DNA from: Candidatus Aenigmatarchaeota archaeon
GTDB lineage: Archaea > Thermoplasmatota > Thermoplasmata > Halarchaeoplasmatales > Halarchaeoplasmataceae
Direction of reading: 5' to 3'
Length of the DNA: 64,000 nt
Assembly: GCA_046537845.1 (NCBI GenBank)
Contig: JBKHKA010000002.1
Coordinates: 67,152 to 131,151, forward strand
Shown here piece after piece: positions 28,309-32,771 of the stretch. A program made the position numbers and the translations under genes. The notes beneath the pieces are model-generated. The model was not told the DNA's origin and searched no databases. It saw only the letters and a list, made by a program, of their open reading frames with translations. Position 1 is the first letter of the stretch. Each line of letters starts with the position of its first letter.

Positions 28309-29973
28309 TTAATCCTCTTGTTCCAACTCTTTTTCCTTCTCTTTTACTTTCTCTATTTTTTCTGAGAGTTCCTCTCTCCTCTCCTTCAAGTTCTTTTTTA
28401 TCTTGTCCACTTTTTCTTCTTTCTCTTTAAGTTCGGATTCTTTTTCTTCCAATCCTTCCTCTTTCTCTTCTAGTTCTCCATTTTTTCTTTCATATTCTTC
28501 CTTTATCCTTTTCACTTCCTCCTCATCCTTTTCAAGGGCTTCTTCCCTTTCCGTCAATTCATCTTCTCTTTCTTCCAATTTATCTTCTTTCTCTTGGAGT
28601 TTGGCTTTGGTCTCTTTCAGGTTTTCCTTTCTCTTCTCTAGATTGTCATATTCTTCTTCTAACTCAGATTCCCTAGAATCCAACTTTTTCTTTTTCTCTT
28701 CTATAGATTCTTTTTCTTCCTCTATTTTATCTTCTCGTTCAGCTAACTTTCCTTCTCTCTGGTCCAATCTTTCTTTTTCCTTTTTGAGTTCATCTTCTTT
28801 TTCTGATATCTGCTTTTCTCTCTCCCCTAACTGCTCTTTCTTATTTTCTAATTCCTCTTTTAGGGAGTCCAAACTTTCCCTTTCTTTTTCAACCTTTTCT
28901 TCTCTTTCCTCTAACTCTTCCCTTTCCTGTTTGAGCTCATCTCTTTTTTCTTCAAACTGACGTTCGATTTCCTCTTCTCTTTCATCTAATTTTTTCTCTT
29001 TTTCCTCCAACTCATTTTCTTTCTCGTCGAGCTCTCGGACCTTTTGGTCAAGATCATTTCTTTTTTCATCCAATCTATTCTGCTCCCCTTGAAGCTCTTT
29101 TTCTCTATCTTTTAGTTCAGATCTTTTTTTATCCAGTTCTCCGAGTTCCCGTTCGATCTCTCTTCGCTTTTCTTCCACCTCCTTTTCTCTTTCCTCTAGC
29201 CCAGCTTCCTTCTGTTCCAGCTCTTCTTCCTTTTCCTTCAAATCGATCTTCTTTATATCCAGCCTCTCTTTTTCATCTTGGATCGACTTCTTTTGCTTCT
29301 CAAGTTCCTCCTTTAGTTCAGCTAATCCTCTTTCTTTTTCCTCCAGATTTTTTTCTTGTTTAATCAGGTCTTCTCTTCTTTTTTCGATATCTTTTCTATC
29401 CTCGTCAATTTTTCTCAGCTTATTTTCTATCTCTTTTTCTCTTTCATCCAAGCTCTTTCTTCTTGCTTCCAATCCTTCTTTTTCTGACTCGAGCTCTTCT
29501 CTCTCCTTTTTTAATTCCTCTTCCTTTTTTTCTAGGTCCCGAGTTTTTTGTTCTATCTCCTGTTTATCTTTCTCTACCCTCCTTTTTTCCTTCTCAAACT
29601 CCTTCCGCTCTTCTTCGAGATTTTTTCGTTCTTTTTCGATCCTGTTTTCCTCCTCTTTAACCGCCTGCAACTTTTCTCCCACTTCATCCATCTTTTCAAA
29701 ATATTCTTCTTTCTTATCTTCCACTTCAGCTTCTTTCTCTTCCAACTCAGATCTTTCTTTTTCTAACTCCTCACTTTTTTCTTCAAGCTCTTCTTCCCTT
29801 TGTCTAAGGGCCTTGCTCCACTTTTGAAGGCGTTGCTCTTCCTTATCGAGTTCTTTTTTCCTGTTCTCGATCTTCCTTTTTTCTTCATCTATATTTCGCA
29901 ATTTTTCTTGGAACTTGTCCAGTTCCGATCCTGGCCCTGTATTAGAGCTCTTTTTTTCTTCGTTAGGAACCAA
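28309..29973 (-). CDS. 554-aa E/K-rich continuous coiled-coil / charged-helix protein
   Basis: Essentially the whole ORF is E, K, R, L and D in heptad-like repeats (e.g. EEKEKKLDEREEEIERQFEEKRDELKQEREELEE). No TM segment or globular motif. The antisense ORFs are S/F-rich mirror artefacts. Confidence 0.75.
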   Translation of the reverse strand: MVPNEEKKSSNTGPGSELDKFQEKLRNIDEEKRKIENRKKELDKEEQRLQKWSKALRQREEELEEKSEELEKERSELEEKEAEVEDKKEEYFEKMDEVGEKLQAVKEEENRIEKERKNLEEERKEFEKEKRRVEKDKQEIEQKTRDLEKKEEELKKEREELESEKEGLEARRKSLDEREKEIENKLRKIDEDRKDIEKRREDLIKQEKNLEEKERGLAELKEELEKQKKSIQDEKERLDIKKIDLKEKEEELEQKEAGLEEREKEVEEKRREIERELGELDKKRSELKDREKELQGEQNRLDEKRNDLDQKVRELDEKENELEEKEKKLDEREEEIERQFEEKRDELKQEREELEEREEKVEKERESLDSLKEELENKKEQLGEREKQISEKEDELKKEKERLDQREGKLAEREDKIEEEKESIEEKKKKLDSRESELEEEYDNLEKRKENLKETKAKLQEKEDKLEEREDELTEREEALEKDEEEVKRIKEEYERKNGELEEKEEGLEEKESELKEKEEKVDKIKKNLKERREELSEKIEKVKEKEKELEQED

Positions 29974-30834: not shown

Positions 30835-30908
30835 AGCCACCGGTGGGATTTGAACCCACGACCTGCTGATTACAAGTCAGCCGCTCTGCCGAACTAAGCT
30901 ACGGTGGC
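30835..30908 (-). tRNA. tRNA-Thr (anticodon UGU)
   Basis: Minus strand: GCCACCG TA GCTT AGTTCGGCA GAGC G GCTGA CTTGTAA TCAGC AGGTC GTGGG TTCAAAT CCCAC CGGTGGC T. It folds by hand as a cloverleaf. No intron and no encoded CCA. Confidence 0.9.
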
Positions 30909-30999: not shown

Positions 31000-31236
31000 A
31001 ATGAGGAATCTGCTCTCTTTTTAGATGTTGTACATCCACCTATCAACATCTGTAAAATAAACCTTCCGGCGAGCTTTCACCTCCGCCTGAAATATCCCTG
31101 AGTCAAACCAACCACCGAAAGTGATATATGTAAGACGCTAACTAATATGTACTACAACTATAACTTATTCAAAGAAAAAGTATCGAAGATTATAATCCGT
31201 GGAAAATGTTTATATAGTCCCCTTTACGTATATATT

Positions 31237-31289
31237 ATGTCCTACATTCGCCTTAGATATGTGCGACATAATGTCGTAATGTAGGACAT
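31237..31289. promoter_or_regulatory. Three ATGT-N3-ACAT palindromic boxes upstream of the RHH gene (putative autoregulatory operator)
   Basis: atgtcctacat (31237-47), atgtgcgacat (31259-69) and atgtaggacat (31279-89). Boxes 1 and 3 are exact reverse complements. Starts are spaced 22 and 20 bp. TATA-like tttatata lies at 31209-16. Confidence 0.6.
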
Positions 31290-31313: not shown

Positions 31314-31703
31314 ATGGAAAAGAAAATATCTCTGCGGGTGTCCGACGAGGACCTGGAAGTCATCGACTCCTTCATAGCAAGGCATGACTTCAACAACAGA
31401 TCGGAATTTTTAAGAGAAGCGGCTCTAGATTATATCGAGAGATACAGCGAACCCAAAGGACAGGAAGAAGTACCGGAAAGGATCAAGCTCCCCAAGAGAC
31501 TCAAGAACAACATTTGGTATCTCATCAAGATGGGGCACTACAACGACTGGCAGGACGCTATCCACGAACTCGTTAGAGAAGGGCTTCTAAAAGAAGATAT
31601 GGAAAAACTGGAAAGGCAGTATGATGCAGTCGACTCTCTGAGCAGCAAAGTGGAGACTTTCAAAAGTTTTGCTGAAGAAGAAAATGAATACATGAAAAAG
31701 TGA
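31314..31703 (+). CDS. Ribbon-helix-helix (CopG/Arc-type) DNA-binding protein with helical C-terminal extension
   Basis: N-terminal KKISLRVSDEDLEVIDSFIARHDFNNRSEFLREAALDYI is a typical RHH strand-helix-helix. Sits immediately upstream of an FtsZ-family gene. Confidence 0.75.
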   Translation: MEKKISLRVSDEDLEVIDSFIARHDFNNRSEFLREAALDYIERYSEPKGQEEVPERIKLPKRLKNNIWYLIKMGHYNDWQDAIHELVREGLLKEDMEKLERQYDAVDSLSSKVETFKSFAEEENEYMKK

Positions 31704-31753
31704 TACCCACCTTATATAGGATGAAAAGACCCCCTAACCGGAGGAAAGTATAT

Positions 31754-32629
31754 ATGGATGCAAAAAGCCCCGAATACCCTTCGCCCGAAAGCGAATTCCT
31801 CGATAGTAGAGCTGAGGACATAGTGGATGCACTCCTCTACGAACCGAACCTACACGTGATAGGTGTAGGCGGCTGCGGCTGTAACACCATAGAACACATC
31901 ACCGACAAAGAGATGGACAACGTGAAAACGATAGCCGTGAATACAGATGAAAAAGTACTTGAAGATATGAATGCGGATAGGCAGATGCTGATAGGAAAAG
32001 AATTGACCGACGGAAAAGGAGCCAACGGAGATCCAAAGATAGGAAAAAGAGCGGCACAAAAGAGTGAAGAGCAGTTGTTGAAAACGATAGACGAATCGGA
32101 CATGGTGGTTATAGTTGCTGGATTAGGAGGGGGCACCGGTAGTGGTGCTTCCAAAGTGATCGCGGACCTAGCAAGAAGGAACGGCAAGATGGTCTTCACC
32201 TATGCGGTGATGCCCTTCTCTGTAGAAGGAGAAAAGAGGCAAAACAGAGCTGAAAAAATGCTAGACCAGTTGTCAAAATTGAGCCATGCAACTACCGTCT
32301 TCGACAATGACAAAACATTGAGCAATGGTAGCCGATCGATGAAAGATGCCTTCGCCATGGCGGACAAAATGCTCTATAAAGTGGTCCAAAACTTGCGGAT
32401 GGATTATATCACGGAATTCTTTGGGGAGATAGGGCTAGATGCGATGGACTTGTCTGAAACCATTTCTGAAGTTGAATATGAAGAAGAAGGAAAGAAAGTA
32501 AATGAGCCTCCCGTCCTCGAGGCATTGAAATTTGTAGAGGCGAATGCAGACCAGGAAGAGGATGAACAAGTCGAGGAAAACATGGAAGAACCCAAGTTAG
32601 ATGATTTCCTTGAAAATTATATGCACTGA
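31754..32629 (+). CDS. Short FtsZ/tubulin-superfamily GTPase lacking the C-terminal subdomain, with acidic tail
   Basis: T1 GVGGCGCN. Tubulin signature GLGGGTGSG. VFDNDK. H7-like MKDAFAMADKMLYKVV. T7-like GEIGLDAMDL. The protein then ends in an acidic tail finishing KLDDFLENYMH. GGAGGA lies 9 nt before ATG 31754. An alternative GTG at 31700 overlaps the RHH stop. Confidence 0.8.
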   Translation: MDAKSPEYPSPESEFLDSRAEDIVDALLYEPNLHVIGVGGCGCNTIEHITDKEMDNVKTIAVNTDEKVLEDMNADRQMLIGKELTDGKGANGDPKIGKRAAQKSEEQLLKTIDESDMVVIVAGLGGGTGSGASKVIADLARRNGKMVFTYAVMPFSVEGEKRQNRAEKMLDQLSKLSHATTVFDNDKTLSNGSRSMKDAFAMADKMLYKVVQNLRMDYITEFFGEIGLDAMDLSETISEVEYEEEGKKVNEPPVLEALKFVEANADQEEDEQVEENMEEPKLDDFLENYMH

Positions 32630-32771
32630 GTTCTCCTGAACCCCCTTCTTCTTCTCTTTTTATTACTTTTATTTTTTGAAAATATTAGTTTTACTGTAGT
32701 CGTTTGTTTAGAAGCTTGTTTTTCACTATCGATCTTTTGAGGAAATTTTCACCTGTAAGGTTGTTAGAGCA

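What the first reader, a model, noticed from the sequence alone, without database searches (positions are those of the whole stretch)
31314..32629. RHH regulator coupled to a minimal FtsZ-family protein that lacks the C-terminal subdomain
The FtsZ-like ORF has all the N-terminal GTPase landmarks: GVGGCGCN, GLGGGTGSG, an H7-like helix and a T7-like GLDAMD. About 55 acidic residues later it stops, ending in KLDDFLENYMH. The ~100-aa C-terminal beta-rich subdomain of FtsZ/CetZ is absent. The 140 bp downstream is non-coding, so this is not an obvious frameshift. The terminal LDDFL peptide is reminiscent of the short C-terminal peptides that tether FtsZ to membrane anchors; that comparison is my inference. 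The upstream gene is a ribbon-helix-helix protein whose stop overlaps a possible GTG start. This echoes the RHH (CdrS-type)-ftsZ2 arrangement reported in Euryarchaeota, but with an unusually truncated tubulin-fold partner.
Basis: partly seen in the sequence, partly recalled or inferred. Interest (0 to 1): 0.6.

Follow-up and report, generated by a model that had tools for sequence, protein, structure and literature searches.

The report
Half-FtsZ gene with RHH regulator
A salt-loving archaeon carries a conserved two-gene unit: a DNA-binding regulator followed by a cell-division protein FtsZ that naturally lacks the half needed to build filaments. The same pair occurs across the class Thermoplasmata, I found no paper describing it, and how it works is open.

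Summary
Window 31314-31703 encodes a 129-aa tandem ribbon-helix-helix (RHH) protein. Window 31754-32629 encodes a 291-aa FtsZ paralog. It has the GTP-binding N-terminal domain and core helix H7, then a 55-residue acidic tail. It has no FtsZ C-terminal subdomain by Pfam, NCBIfam, PDB alignment, or AlphaFold plus Foldseek.

It is not an assembly error. About 60 homologs of 270-295 aa have the same architecture, and 23 of 25 genomes of the same GTDB family carry it. An oligo-T tract and a convergent QueF gene follow the stop.

The true start is ATG 31754, preceded by GGAGG, not the GTG that overlaps the RHH stop.

The RHH + half-FtsZ pair recurs in at least seven Thermoplasmata families. In Methanomethylophilaceae the short form is the only strong FtsZ.

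This genome also has FtsZ1-type genes and a separate canonical CdrS-like RHH + full-length FtsZ pair. The window therefore holds a second, diverged module, not the cdrS-ftsZ2 locus itself.

The most likely function is inferred, not shown: a GTP-binding, one-faced FtsZ subunit that modulates or caps division filaments, under an autoregulating RHH. The tail peptide is lineage-specific and is not the archaeal SepF-binding 'GID' motif. I found no published description.

The parts
31209..31216 (+). TATA-like box (TTTATATA) of the module's promoter
   Evidence: Read from the sequence. An equivalent tttatata precedes the RHH gene in the orthologous loci L007, L009, L011 and L013; L050 has tttaaata. 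Promoter function is inferred.
31237..31289 (+). Three ATGT-N3-ACAT palindromic boxes at 31237-31247, 31259-31269 and 31279-31289, spaced 22 and 20 bp apart. Candidate RHH operator.
   Evidence: Only 17 such boxes occur in the 1.70-Mb genome, and three of them lie within these 53 bp. Orthologs keep a (T)GTCCTAC(A)-type box shortly after the TATA box. L007, L009 and L050 also carry TGTAGGAC boxes in the RHH-FtsZ spacer. Binding has not been tested.
31314..31703 (+). 129-aa tandem ribbon-helix-helix protein, a CdrS-like regulator, with a long C-terminal helix
   Evidence: Pfam RHH_1 at E 2.7e-6. NCBIfam NikR/ParD-type RHH hits fall at residues 4-40 and 57-103, and the CdrS model gives 28 bits against a cut-off of 100. 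It is 30% identical, E 3e-10, to the genome's CdrS-like RHH. The low-confidence AF2 model shows two helix-helix units plus helix 79-128. The gene is conserved upstream of every half-FtsZ examined.
31740..31744 (+). GGAGG ribosome-binding site, 9 nt before the ATG
   Evidence: Read from the sequence. A GGAGG (or GGAGA) occupies the same position in orthologs.
31754..32629 (+). 291-aa half-FtsZ coding sequence, stop codon included
31841..32431 (+). FtsZ N-terminal GTP-binding domain plus core helix H7 (residues 30-226), with T1 GVGGCGCN, NTD, T3 GKGANGDP, T4 GLGGGTGSG, PF..EG and NDK
   Evidence: PF00091 at E 1e-42. AF2 pLDDT is 86-95 over residues 30-180. Foldseek matches FtsZ at rmsd 1.4 A. 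These motifs are invariant across the family.
32432..32449 (+). GLDAMD, the remnant at the position of the FtsZ T7 loop (residues 227-232)
   Evidence: It aligns to NLDFAD of FtsZ. pLDDT is below 50. The second Asp is not conserved in the family, and the motif is missing in other lineages.
32462..32626 (+). 55-residue acidic tail (residues 237-291, 36% D+E) with two conserved short motifs: EPPVLEALKFVE (32504-32539) and LDDFLENYMH (32597-32626)
   Evidence: Both motifs are conserved among the 30 aligned family members while the linkers between them vary in length. AF2 confidence is low.
32646..32677 (+). Oligo-T tract, a likely archaeal transcription terminator
   Evidence: Read from the sequence. 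All orthologous loci of the same GTDB family have a T-run directly after the stop. Function is inferred.

Best explanation
**What it is (shown).** A chromosomal, vertically inherited two-gene module of Thermoplasmata. A tandem-RHH DNA-binding protein related to CdrS is followed by a 'half-FtsZ'. This FtsZ paralog keeps the complete nucleotide-binding N-terminal domain and helix H7. It has lost the C-terminal subdomain and, across the family, the catalytic T7 loop. It ends in a disordered acidic tail with lineage-specific short motifs.

**How it most likely works (inferred).**
- The RHH protein binds the three ATGT-N3-ACAT boxes that overlap the promoter and so controls the pair.
- The half-FtsZ binds GTP and offers only the 'top' (nucleotide) face of an FtsZ subunit.
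- It can therefore accept the T7 face of a full-length FtsZ, and this genome has four full-length FtsZs. It cannot pass a filament on.
- It would thus act as a built-in end-cap or modulator of division filaments.
- Its tail motifs would recruit a partner that is still unknown.
For: **Architecture and reality of the gene.** Searches give the domain structure. About 60 homologs of 270-295 aa carry PF00091 only. 23 of 25 genomes of the same GTDB family carry it.

**Pairing with the RHH gene.** The RHH gene lies immediately upstream in all loci examined, in seven GTDB families.

**GTP-binding motifs.** They are invariant family-wide.

**No C domain supplied in trans.** PF12327 hits in the genome fall only inside the five full-length paralogs.

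**Link to cell division.**
- The RHH is homologous to the CdrS-like RHH that precedes a full-length FtsZ elsewhere in the genome.
- cdrS-ftsZ2 is a known division operon (PMC7439475).
- Pende et al. report ftsZ2 'frequently with parD' (PMC8178401).

**Operator.** Three of the genome's 17 ATGT-N3-ACAT boxes lie in 53 bp between the TATA box and the RHH start, and a related box is conserved in orthologs.

**Precedent.** Truncated FtsZ paralogs of Hyphomicrobiales co-polymerise with the main FtsZ and block division when over-produced (PMC13732431).

**One-faced logic.** This rests on established FtsZ filament structure, in which the T7 loop of one subunit completes the GTP site of the next. That is my knowledge, not tested here.
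Against: - Methanomethylophilaceae carry the half-FtsZ, but no full-length FtsZ and no detectable FtsZ_C domain. There it has no canonical filament to cap, so capping cannot be the only function, and perhaps not the ancestral one.
- No binding, GTPase, localisation or expression data exist.
- The tail motifs differ between lineages, so no common partner can be named.
- The N-domain tree places the family outside the FtsZ1+FtsZ2 clade (95/97 support). Derivation from FtsZ2 is allowed but not favoured (AU p 0.13).
Confidence: 0.4

Rival explanations
1. Autonomous minimal division or nucleotide-switch protein. The half-FtsZ does not work through canonical FtsZ filaments. It acts as a GTP-dependent switch or as a non-canonical self-assembling scaffold, and it organises division through partners bound by helix H7 or the tail. 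It would be the principal FtsZ-type protein where full-length FtsZ is absent.
For: - About 35 sampled Methanomethylophilaceae genomes each have exactly one strong hit, and it is the short form.
- Genome G061 has only the short form plus a very divergent 311-aa relative.
- No FtsZ_C domain was found in three such genomes.
- The family is retained in small genomes of 1.2-2 Mb.
- The T7 loop is not conserved.
Against: - To my knowledge, isolated FtsZ N-domains bind nucleotide but neither polymerise nor hydrolyse GTP. This was not tested here.
- In this genome four full-length FtsZs coexist with it.
- The tails are not conserved across lineages, and Methanomethylophilaceae have almost none.
Confidence: 0.25
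2. GTP-sensing partner of the RHH regulator. The half-FtsZ binds the RHH protein and tunes its DNA binding according to GTP level or FtsZ pool. Alternatively, the RHH supplies the missing activating residue in trans, as ParG does for ParF.
For: - The only invariant companion of the half-FtsZ in all lineages is the RHH gene.
- The RHH has a long extra C-terminal helix not needed for DNA binding.
- Operator-like boxes lie at the promoter.
Against:
- In the cdrS-ftsZ2 precedent the pairing reflects co-transcription, not a known complex.
Confidence: 0.12
3. TubR/TubZ-like DNA segregation cassette. A DNA-binding adaptor on iterated sites is moved by a tubulin-family filament through the GTPase's C-terminal tail.
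For: - The gene order is DNA-binding protein first, then tubulin-fold GTPase with a conserved tail peptide.
- Three phased repeats lie upstream.
Against: - The protein is far closer to FtsZ (E 1e-38) than to RepX/TubZ (E 2.6e-4) or PhuZ.
- It lacks the C-terminal domain that tubulin-family filaments need.
- The locus is chromosomal, with conserved housekeeping neighbours (QueF, carbamate kinase, aminotransferase, HisRS), and is vertically inherited across a class.
- The RHH is related to CdrS.
Confidence: 0.06
4. Artefact or pseudogene: a frameshift, an assembly error, or a decaying FtsZ copy.
For: None, beyond the unusual length.
Against: - About 60 homologs from independent assemblies have the same length and domain content, at 43-100% identity.
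- GTP motifs and tail motifs are conserved.
- A terminator-like T tract and a convergent gene follow 142 bp downstream, and no FtsZ_C remnant is seen in any frame.
Confidence: 0.01

Closest known systems
cdrS-ftsZ2 operon of Halobacteria and other Euryarchaeota (Darnell 2020, PMC7439475; Liao 2021, PMC8406309; called 'parD'-ftsZ2 in Pende 2021, PMC8178401)
   Same: - A small RHH gene lies immediately upstream of an FtsZ-family gene on the same strand.
- The window RHH is homologous to the genome's CdrS-like RHH (E 3e-10) and weakly matches the CdrS model.
   Different: - The FtsZ partner lacks the C-terminal subdomain, a conserved T7 loop and the GID tail.
- The RHH is a 129-aa tandem RHH that scores 28 bits against a cut-off of 100.
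- The genome has a separate, better cdrS-ftsZ2 pair at C32.
- The tree does not nest the short protein inside FtsZ2.
Canonical archaeal FtsZ1/FtsZ2 (e.g. M. jannaschii FtsZ, PDB 1FSZ)
   Same: - The N-terminal GTPase domain is 36-40% identical and superposes at rmsd 1.4-3.5 A.
- All nucleotide-binding loops T1-T6 and helix H7 are present.
   Different: - There is no C-terminal subdomain (PF12327).
- The T7 loop is degenerate.
- There is no GID tail peptide.
- It scores below the TIGR00065 cut-off.
Truncated FtsZ paralogs of Hyphomicrobiales (Agrobacterium FtsZ1/FtsZ3; PMC13732431)
   Same: Extra, shortened FtsZ copies are kept beside the canonical FtsZ and are proposed to tune or inhibit division. 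FtsZ1 co-polymerises and blocks division when over-produced.
   Different: - As described in that paper, FtsZ1 and most such duplicates lose C-terminal motifs (linker, anchoring peptide) and keep the GTPase domain. How far FtsZ3 is truncated I did not check.
- They are bacterial, and no RHH partner is described in what I read.
- Here the C-terminal globular subdomain itself is gone.
TubR-TubZ type III plasmid partition
   Same: The gene order and logic match: a DNA-binding protein, a tubulin-fold GTPase with a tail, and upstream repeats.
   Different: - Sequence similarity to TubZ/RepX is very distant (E 2.6e-4).
- The locus is chromosomal and vertically inherited.
- The adaptor is an RHH protein, not a winged-helix protein.
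- There is no C-terminal domain.
FtsZl1 family (Makarova & Koonin 2010, PMC2875224)
   Same: It is an FtsZ-superfamily protein lacking a recognisable FtsZ/tubulin C-terminal domain, and its ability to form filaments has been questioned.
   Different: FtsZl1 has a Tubulin_2-type N-domain lacking T6-H7, a coiled coil and an alpha-helical C-domain. Here PF13809 scores only 16 bits (cut-off 27), and T6 and H7 are intact.

Membership tests
FtsZ sensu stricto (TIGR00065 / PF00091+PF12327) | N-terminal GTP-binding domain with the tubulin signature GGGTG[ST]G and loops T1-T6 | tested here: met
   PF00091 at E 1e-42. GLGGGTGSG, GVGGCGCN, NTD and NDK are present and invariant in the family.
FtsZ sensu stricto (TIGR00065 / PF00091+PF12327) | C-terminal subdomain (FtsZ_C, PF12327) | tested here: not met
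   There is no PF12327 hit. The whole-genome PF12327 search finds it only in the other five paralogs. AF2 and Foldseek cover the N-domain only.
FtsZ sensu stricto (TIGR00065 / PF00091+PF12327) | T7 synergy loop (N-x-D-x-x-D) that activates GTP hydrolysis in the neighbouring subunit | tested here: not met
   The window protein has GLDAMD, but the Asn is replaced, the second Asp varies within the family, and the motif is absent in other lineages. pLDDT is below 50.
FtsZ sensu stricto (TIGR00065 / PF00091+PF12327) | Score above the curated equivalog cut-off | tested here: not met
   198.7 bits against 295.2. Four of the genome's five other paralogs score 346-417; the degenerate one scores 121.
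FtsZ sensu stricto (TIGR00065 / PF00091+PF12327) | Archaeal C-terminal 'GID' peptide that binds SepF (PMC8178401) | tested here: not met
   The tail ends in LDDFLENYMH. GID-like ends occur in the genome's full-length FtsZs.
cdrS-ftsZ2 module | RHH gene immediately upstream of the FtsZ-family gene on the same strand | tested here: met
   There is a 50-nt spacer here. The arrangement is conserved in all orthologous loci.
cdrS-ftsZ2 module | RHH is a CdrS ortholog (NF058555) | tested here: not met
   28.1 bits against a cut-off of 100. The RHH at C32:24879-25247 scores 77.1. It is homologous to CdrS but not an equivalog.
cdrS-ftsZ2 module | FtsZ partner belongs to the FtsZ2 clade | tested here: inconclusive
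   The N-domain tree puts the short family outside FtsZ1+FtsZ2 (95/97). The AU test of short+FtsZ2 as one clade gives p 0.13. No outgroup or named FtsZ2 references were available.
cdrS-ftsZ2 module | Co-transcription of the two genes | not testable with these tools
Only the shared strand, the short spacer and a terminator-like tract after the second gene are seen.
TubZ/TubR type III partition | TubZ-type GTPase carried on a plasmid or phage | tested here: not met
   RepX scores E 2.6e-4 against FtsZ at 1e-38. The chromosomal synteny is conserved.
CetZ | CetZ-type sequence with a tubulin-like C-terminal domain | tested here: not met
   CetZ chains 4b45 and 4b46 score E 2e-13 and 6.5e-10 against FtsZ at 1e-38, and there is no C-domain.
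FtsZl1 (Tubulin_2, PF13809) | Tubulin_2 domain plus coiled coil plus alpha-helical C-domain | tested here: not met
   PF13809 scores 16.4 bits against a cut-off of 27. The architecture differs.
Thermoplasmata 'half-FtsZ' family (no published name found) | 230-310 aa; PF00091 only; intact GTP motifs and H7; tandem-RHH gene directly upstream | tested here: met

The most novel reading that the evidence does not exclude
Thermoplasmata encode a natural 'one-faced' FtsZ that has been kept since early in the class. In lineages that have lost all full-length FtsZ, such as the gut methanogens Methanomethylophilaceae, this GTPase-domain-only protein with its RHH partner would be the core of a division or membrane-remodelling mechanism. 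That mechanism would work without the canonical head-to-tail, T7-activated tubulin or FtsZ polymer.
Probability: 0.2. Interest if true: 0.85.

Novelty: new variant of a known kind. Interest (0 to 1): 0.62.

Why it matters
**Challenge to the standard picture.** FtsZ and tubulin are thought to work only as two-domain subunits, in which the T7 loop (between the two domains) and the C-terminal domain of one subunit complete the GTPase site of the next. A half-molecule conserved across a class and under clear purifying selection is therefore one of two things:
- a genetically encoded filament cap or brake, which would be a new kind of archaeal division regulator; or
- evidence that the GTP-binding half can do useful work alone.

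**An open question it raises.** The family includes human- and animal-gut methanogens (Methanomethylophilaceae, Methanomassiliicoccaceae). There it is annotated simply as 'cell division protein FtsZ' and appears to be the only strong FtsZ homolog. How those cells divide is therefore open.

**What this genome adds.** Here the half-FtsZ coexists with FtsZ1-type genes and a canonical CdrS-like + FtsZ pair. That shows it to be an additional module, not a replacement. It also offers a natural set of cognate partners for biochemical tests.

Tried and rejected
1. **Assembly error or frameshift.** Rejected by about 60 same-length homologs and by the downstream anatomy.
2. **GTG start overlapping the RHH stop.** Rejected by orthologs.
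3. **Split FtsZ with a separately encoded C-domain.** The PF12327 genome search found none outside the five full-length paralogs, and none at all in three Methanomethylophilaceae genomes.
4. **Alpha/beta-tubulin-like complementation with the genome's degenerate 309-aa FtsZ (C32:50408-51337).** That family has a five-residue deletion of T7 and a degenerate GGETGS motif, so it cannot supply the missing catalytic loop.
5. **A third gene for a tiny membrane protein**, reported by earlier notes for soil relatives. No convincing conserved small hydrophobic ORF lies downstream here or in the 19 other loci I checked.
6. **Tail as the archaeal SepF-binding peptide.** The motif differs from GID.
7. **Rfam scan of spacer elements in related loci.** No family matched.
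8. **AF2 of the RHH protein.** Confidence was too low (pLDDT 65, five sequences) for a fold search.
10. **Long 'double' hits in the representative library (P0241-P0243, P0251).** These are tandem full-length FtsZ fusions and are not relevant.
11. **A second ATGTCCTACAT box at C14:47961.** It lies at the start of a gene I did not identify; the isolated occurrence was not pursued.
Full report
**1. The observation**

ORF listing and sequence confirm two same-strand ORFs. One is a 129-aa ORF at 31314-31703. The other is an FtsZ-like ORF ending at 32629.

The first is an RHH protein. It matches Pfam RHH_1 at E 2.7e-6, above the cut-off. NCBIfam RHH-type models hit residues 4-40 and again 57-103, so it is a tandem RHH. 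The haloarchaeal CdrS model gives 28 bits against a cut-off of 100.

The second protein has only the Tubulin/FtsZ GTPase domain (PF00091, residues 34-189, E 1e-42).
- The FtsZ equivalog TIGR00065 scores 198.7 bits, below its 295.2 cut-off, and aligns only to model positions 17-224 of 353.
- Solved FtsZ structures match at E about 1e-38, but only over query residues 29-238.
- An AlphaFold2 model built on 30 family members is confident for residues 30-190. It shows H7 as a long helix (196-226) and leaves the rest as low-confidence short helices.
- Foldseek aligns 185-190 columns to FtsZ at rmsd 1.4 A and covers about 58% of the targets.

The C-terminal subdomain is therefore truly absent. The tail (residues 237-291) is 36% Asp+Glu.

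**2. It is a real gene, with a corrected start**

About 60 homologs at 43-100% identity are all 270-295 aa and carry PF00091 only. Their alignment shows three things:
- invariant GTP-binding motifs;
- a conserved EPPVLEALKYVE motif;
- a conserved terminal LD[SD]FLENY, with the linkers between these motifs variable in length.

In eight independent contigs the RHH gene (129-145 aa) precedes the short FtsZ by 53-70 nt. QueF (convergent), carbamate kinase, an aminotransferase (absent from two of the eight) and HisRS follow, while the upstream flank varies.

Orthologs start at an ATG behind GGAGG. The window equivalent is ATG 31754, with GGAGG at 31740-31744. The GTG at 31700 that overlaps the RHH stop is not conserved.

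An oligo-T tract follows the stop here and in every locus of the same GTDB family. The next gene is the convergent QueF, 142 bp away. No frame downstream holds an FtsZ_C remnant.

**3. Distribution**

*Within the GTDB family.* A profile of the close family finds full-length matches (400-475 bits) in 23 of 25 genomes of the same GTDB family, spanning nine genera.

*Across the class.* Other families of the class also have short FtsZ-like frames. I fetched these loci and found that each 235-312-aa short FtsZ has a 111-186-aa RHH gene of the same type directly upstream (GTDB families f1, f3, f4, f6, f14, f26, f30).

*Methanomethylophilaceae.* Source names identify f6 as Methanomethylophilaceae, with relatives in Methanomassiliicoccaceae. 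There the protein is annotated 'cell division protein FtsZ' at 227-257 aa.

*Across the phylum.* In a sample of 301 genomes, short high-scoring frames occur almost only in the window's own class. Two borderline short frames in other classes (G427, 299 aa; G409, 223 aa) were not examined. About 35 Methanomethylophilaceae genomes each have exactly one strong hit, and it is the short form.

*Detail for three f6 genomes.* G061, a complete 1.67-Mb genome, has only the short form plus a very divergent 311-aa relative. Three such genomes have no FtsZ_C domain at all. SepF is detectable in two of the three f6 genomes tested and in most other genomes. It was not found in the 81%-complete window genome.

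*Family size.* A search of 1.84 billion representatives suggests roughly 25-40 clusters at 50% identity for the short family.

**4. The other FtsZ genes of this genome**

The genome has six tubulin-family genes.
- C9 (374 aa) lies near ribosomal protein L11, the context reported for ftsZ1.
- C30 (364 aa) is its paralog.
- C2 (385 aa) is a third full-length FtsZ.
- C32:23816-24817 (333 aa) is preceded by a 122-aa tandem RHH. That RHH scores 77 bits on the CdrS model and has two RHH_1 stretches. This is the genome's best cdrS-ftsZ2 candidate.
- C32:50408-51337 (309 aa) is a degenerate FtsZ with GGETGS and a deleted T7 loop.

The window RHH and the C32 RHH are homologous (30% identity over 87 aa, E 3e-10) and share the tandem layout. 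In six other genomes the same split holds: CdrS-type RHH genes precede 342-366-aa FtsZs, and window-type RHH genes precede short FtsZs.

**5. Phylogeny**

I built an IQ-TREE tree of 56 Thermoplasmata sequences on N-domain columns only.
- FtsZ1-like plus CdrS-linked FtsZs form a clade with 95/97 support.
- The short proteins fall outside it in three well-supported groups.
- The degenerate family is a separate clade.

Monophyly of the short family is not rejected (AU p 0.42). A clade of short plus FtsZ2 is less likely but also not rejected (p 0.13, delta lnL 10).

I had no outgroup and no named references, so the root and the exact origin stay open. The shared RHH partner argues for an old duplication of a whole RHH-FtsZ cassette. 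That argument is synteny-based inference.

**6. What is conserved and what is not**

Across all lineages T1, NTD, T3, T4, PF.[FV]E, N(D/N) and H7 are kept. After H7 the FtsZ T7 motif is not kept.
- Only the window's family has GLDA.., and even there the second Asp is D, N or G.
- Tails differ by lineage: EPPVLEAL...LDSFLENY in f1, VAPVPLHA...DLLQ in f3, YMMPEMV...PLMQ in f26, LPSILSNPLPQ in f30, and almost nothing in f6.
- The tail is thus a lineage-specific set of short linear motifs. It is not the archaeal GID peptide.

**7. Regulation**

Three ATGT-N3-ACAT palindromes (31237, 31259, 31279) lie between a TTTATATA box (31209) and the RHH start.
- The whole 1.70-Mb genome has only 17 such boxes, against about 33 expected from base composition.
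- Orthologs keep a (T)GTCCTAC(A)-type box shortly after the TATA box.
- Several orthologs carry TGTAGGAC boxes in the RHH-FtsZ spacer.

This fits autoregulation by the RHH protein. No binding data exist.

**8. Mechanism**

*Shown:* the architecture, the conservation, the pairing with an RHH gene, and the coexistence with full-length FtsZs.

*Inferred:* because the nucleotide face is intact and the T7/C-domain face is gone, the protein can only be the terminal subunit of a canonical FtsZ filament. Its most economical role is then a cap or modulator of FtsZ1/FtsZ2 filaments. The precedent is the truncated FtsZ paralogs of Hyphomicrobiales, which co-polymerise and inhibit division.

*Main objection:* in Methanomethylophilaceae there is no full-length FtsZ to cap. 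I therefore give the capping model 0.4 and keep three rivals:
- an autonomous switch or scaffold (0.25);
- a partner of the RHH regulator (0.12);
- a TubRZ-like segregation cassette (0.06). This last is disfavoured by sequence, by chromosomal synteny and by the CdrS relationship.

**9. Literature and earlier notes**

Full-text searches found the cdrS-ftsZ2 work, the SepF work, FtsZl1/2 and the bacterial truncated paralogs. They found no description of a C-domain-less FtsZ in Thermoplasmata. One large FtsZ/tubulin survey removed sequences with under 60% alignment coverage, which would likely drop this family.

Earlier unchecked notes of this scan describe the same family in at least eight other Thermoplasmata genomes. 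I reached the same architecture independently. This genome adds two points. Here the module coexists with a canonical CdrS-like + FtsZ pair, so it has not replaced that pair. And no tiny membrane gene follows it.

**10. Verdict**

I rate it a new variant of a known kind: an FtsZ paralog in a cdrS-ftsZ-type module. Its identity is well supported and its mechanism is open.

Noticed in passing
L015, L017, L018, L019, L021, L022, L024, L051, L054 (spacer between the RHH gene and the half-FtsZ gene): In GTDB families f3, f26 and f6 the 95-276-nt spacer holds a conserved element, AG(A/G)GGGATGGGAtgc. In two of the f6 loci (L020, L023), which carry variant forms of the element, it sits inside a long hairpin whose stem sequence differs between the loci; for the other loci I did not examine the structure. 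It is absent from the 50-nt spacer of the window's family and matches no Rfam family. It may be an undescribed leader RNA for the half-FtsZ.
   Followed up: partly
own genome C32:50408-51337 (-), with relatives in L061-L065 and L040: This is a sixth, degenerate FtsZ paralog family of about 300-310 aa. It keeps the C-terminal subdomain but has GGETGS in place of GGGTG[ST]G, has lost the NTD and T3 motifs, and has a five-residue deletion of the T7 loop. It co-occurs with the half-FtsZ in several families.
   Followed up: partly
own genome C32:23816-25247 (-): A canonical-looking cdrS-ftsZ2 pair: a 122-aa tandem RHH (CdrS model 77 bits) followed 62 nt later by a 333-aa full-length FtsZ ending in ...VPGIR.
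   Followed up: yes
An exact ATGTCCTACAT also overlaps the start codon of a gene at C14:47951 whose product I did not identify. Separately, in orthologous contigs a 2-hydroxyacid-dehydrogenase gene (Pfam 2-Hacid_dh_C) lies just upstream of the RHH module (L011-L013).
   Followed up: partly
window 30835-30908 (-): A tRNA-Thr (TGT) lies upstream of the module. Earlier notes describe duplicated tRNA 5' fragments and GGAAC hairpins in this spacer.
   Followed up: no
window 28309-29973 (-): A 554-aa protein made almost entirely of E/K/R/L-rich coiled coil lies upstream. It is not conserved next to the module in orthologous contigs, where rubrerythrin or gamma-glutamyl transpeptidase take that place.
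   Followed up: no
class-wide genome search: All sampled genomes of one genus (g36 of family f18; complete, 1.4-1.9 Mb) have no FtsZ-family hit at all. Sister genera of the same family have two full-length FtsZs and no half-FtsZ.
   Followed up: no
P0241, P0242, P0243, P0251 (representative library): Proteins of 731-840 aa consist of two complete FtsZ units in tandem joined by a low-complexity linker. They are either true fusions or adjacent genes merged by gene calling.
   Followed up: partly
L017, L018, L024, L054 (downstream of the half-FtsZ stop): A conserved GC-rich hairpin, cggcttccaaac..ggtgcggcgg(a/g)tgtc(a/t)(g/a)ccgccg(c/t)acc, follows the stop in family f26. It is probably a terminator or RNA element.
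   Followed up: no
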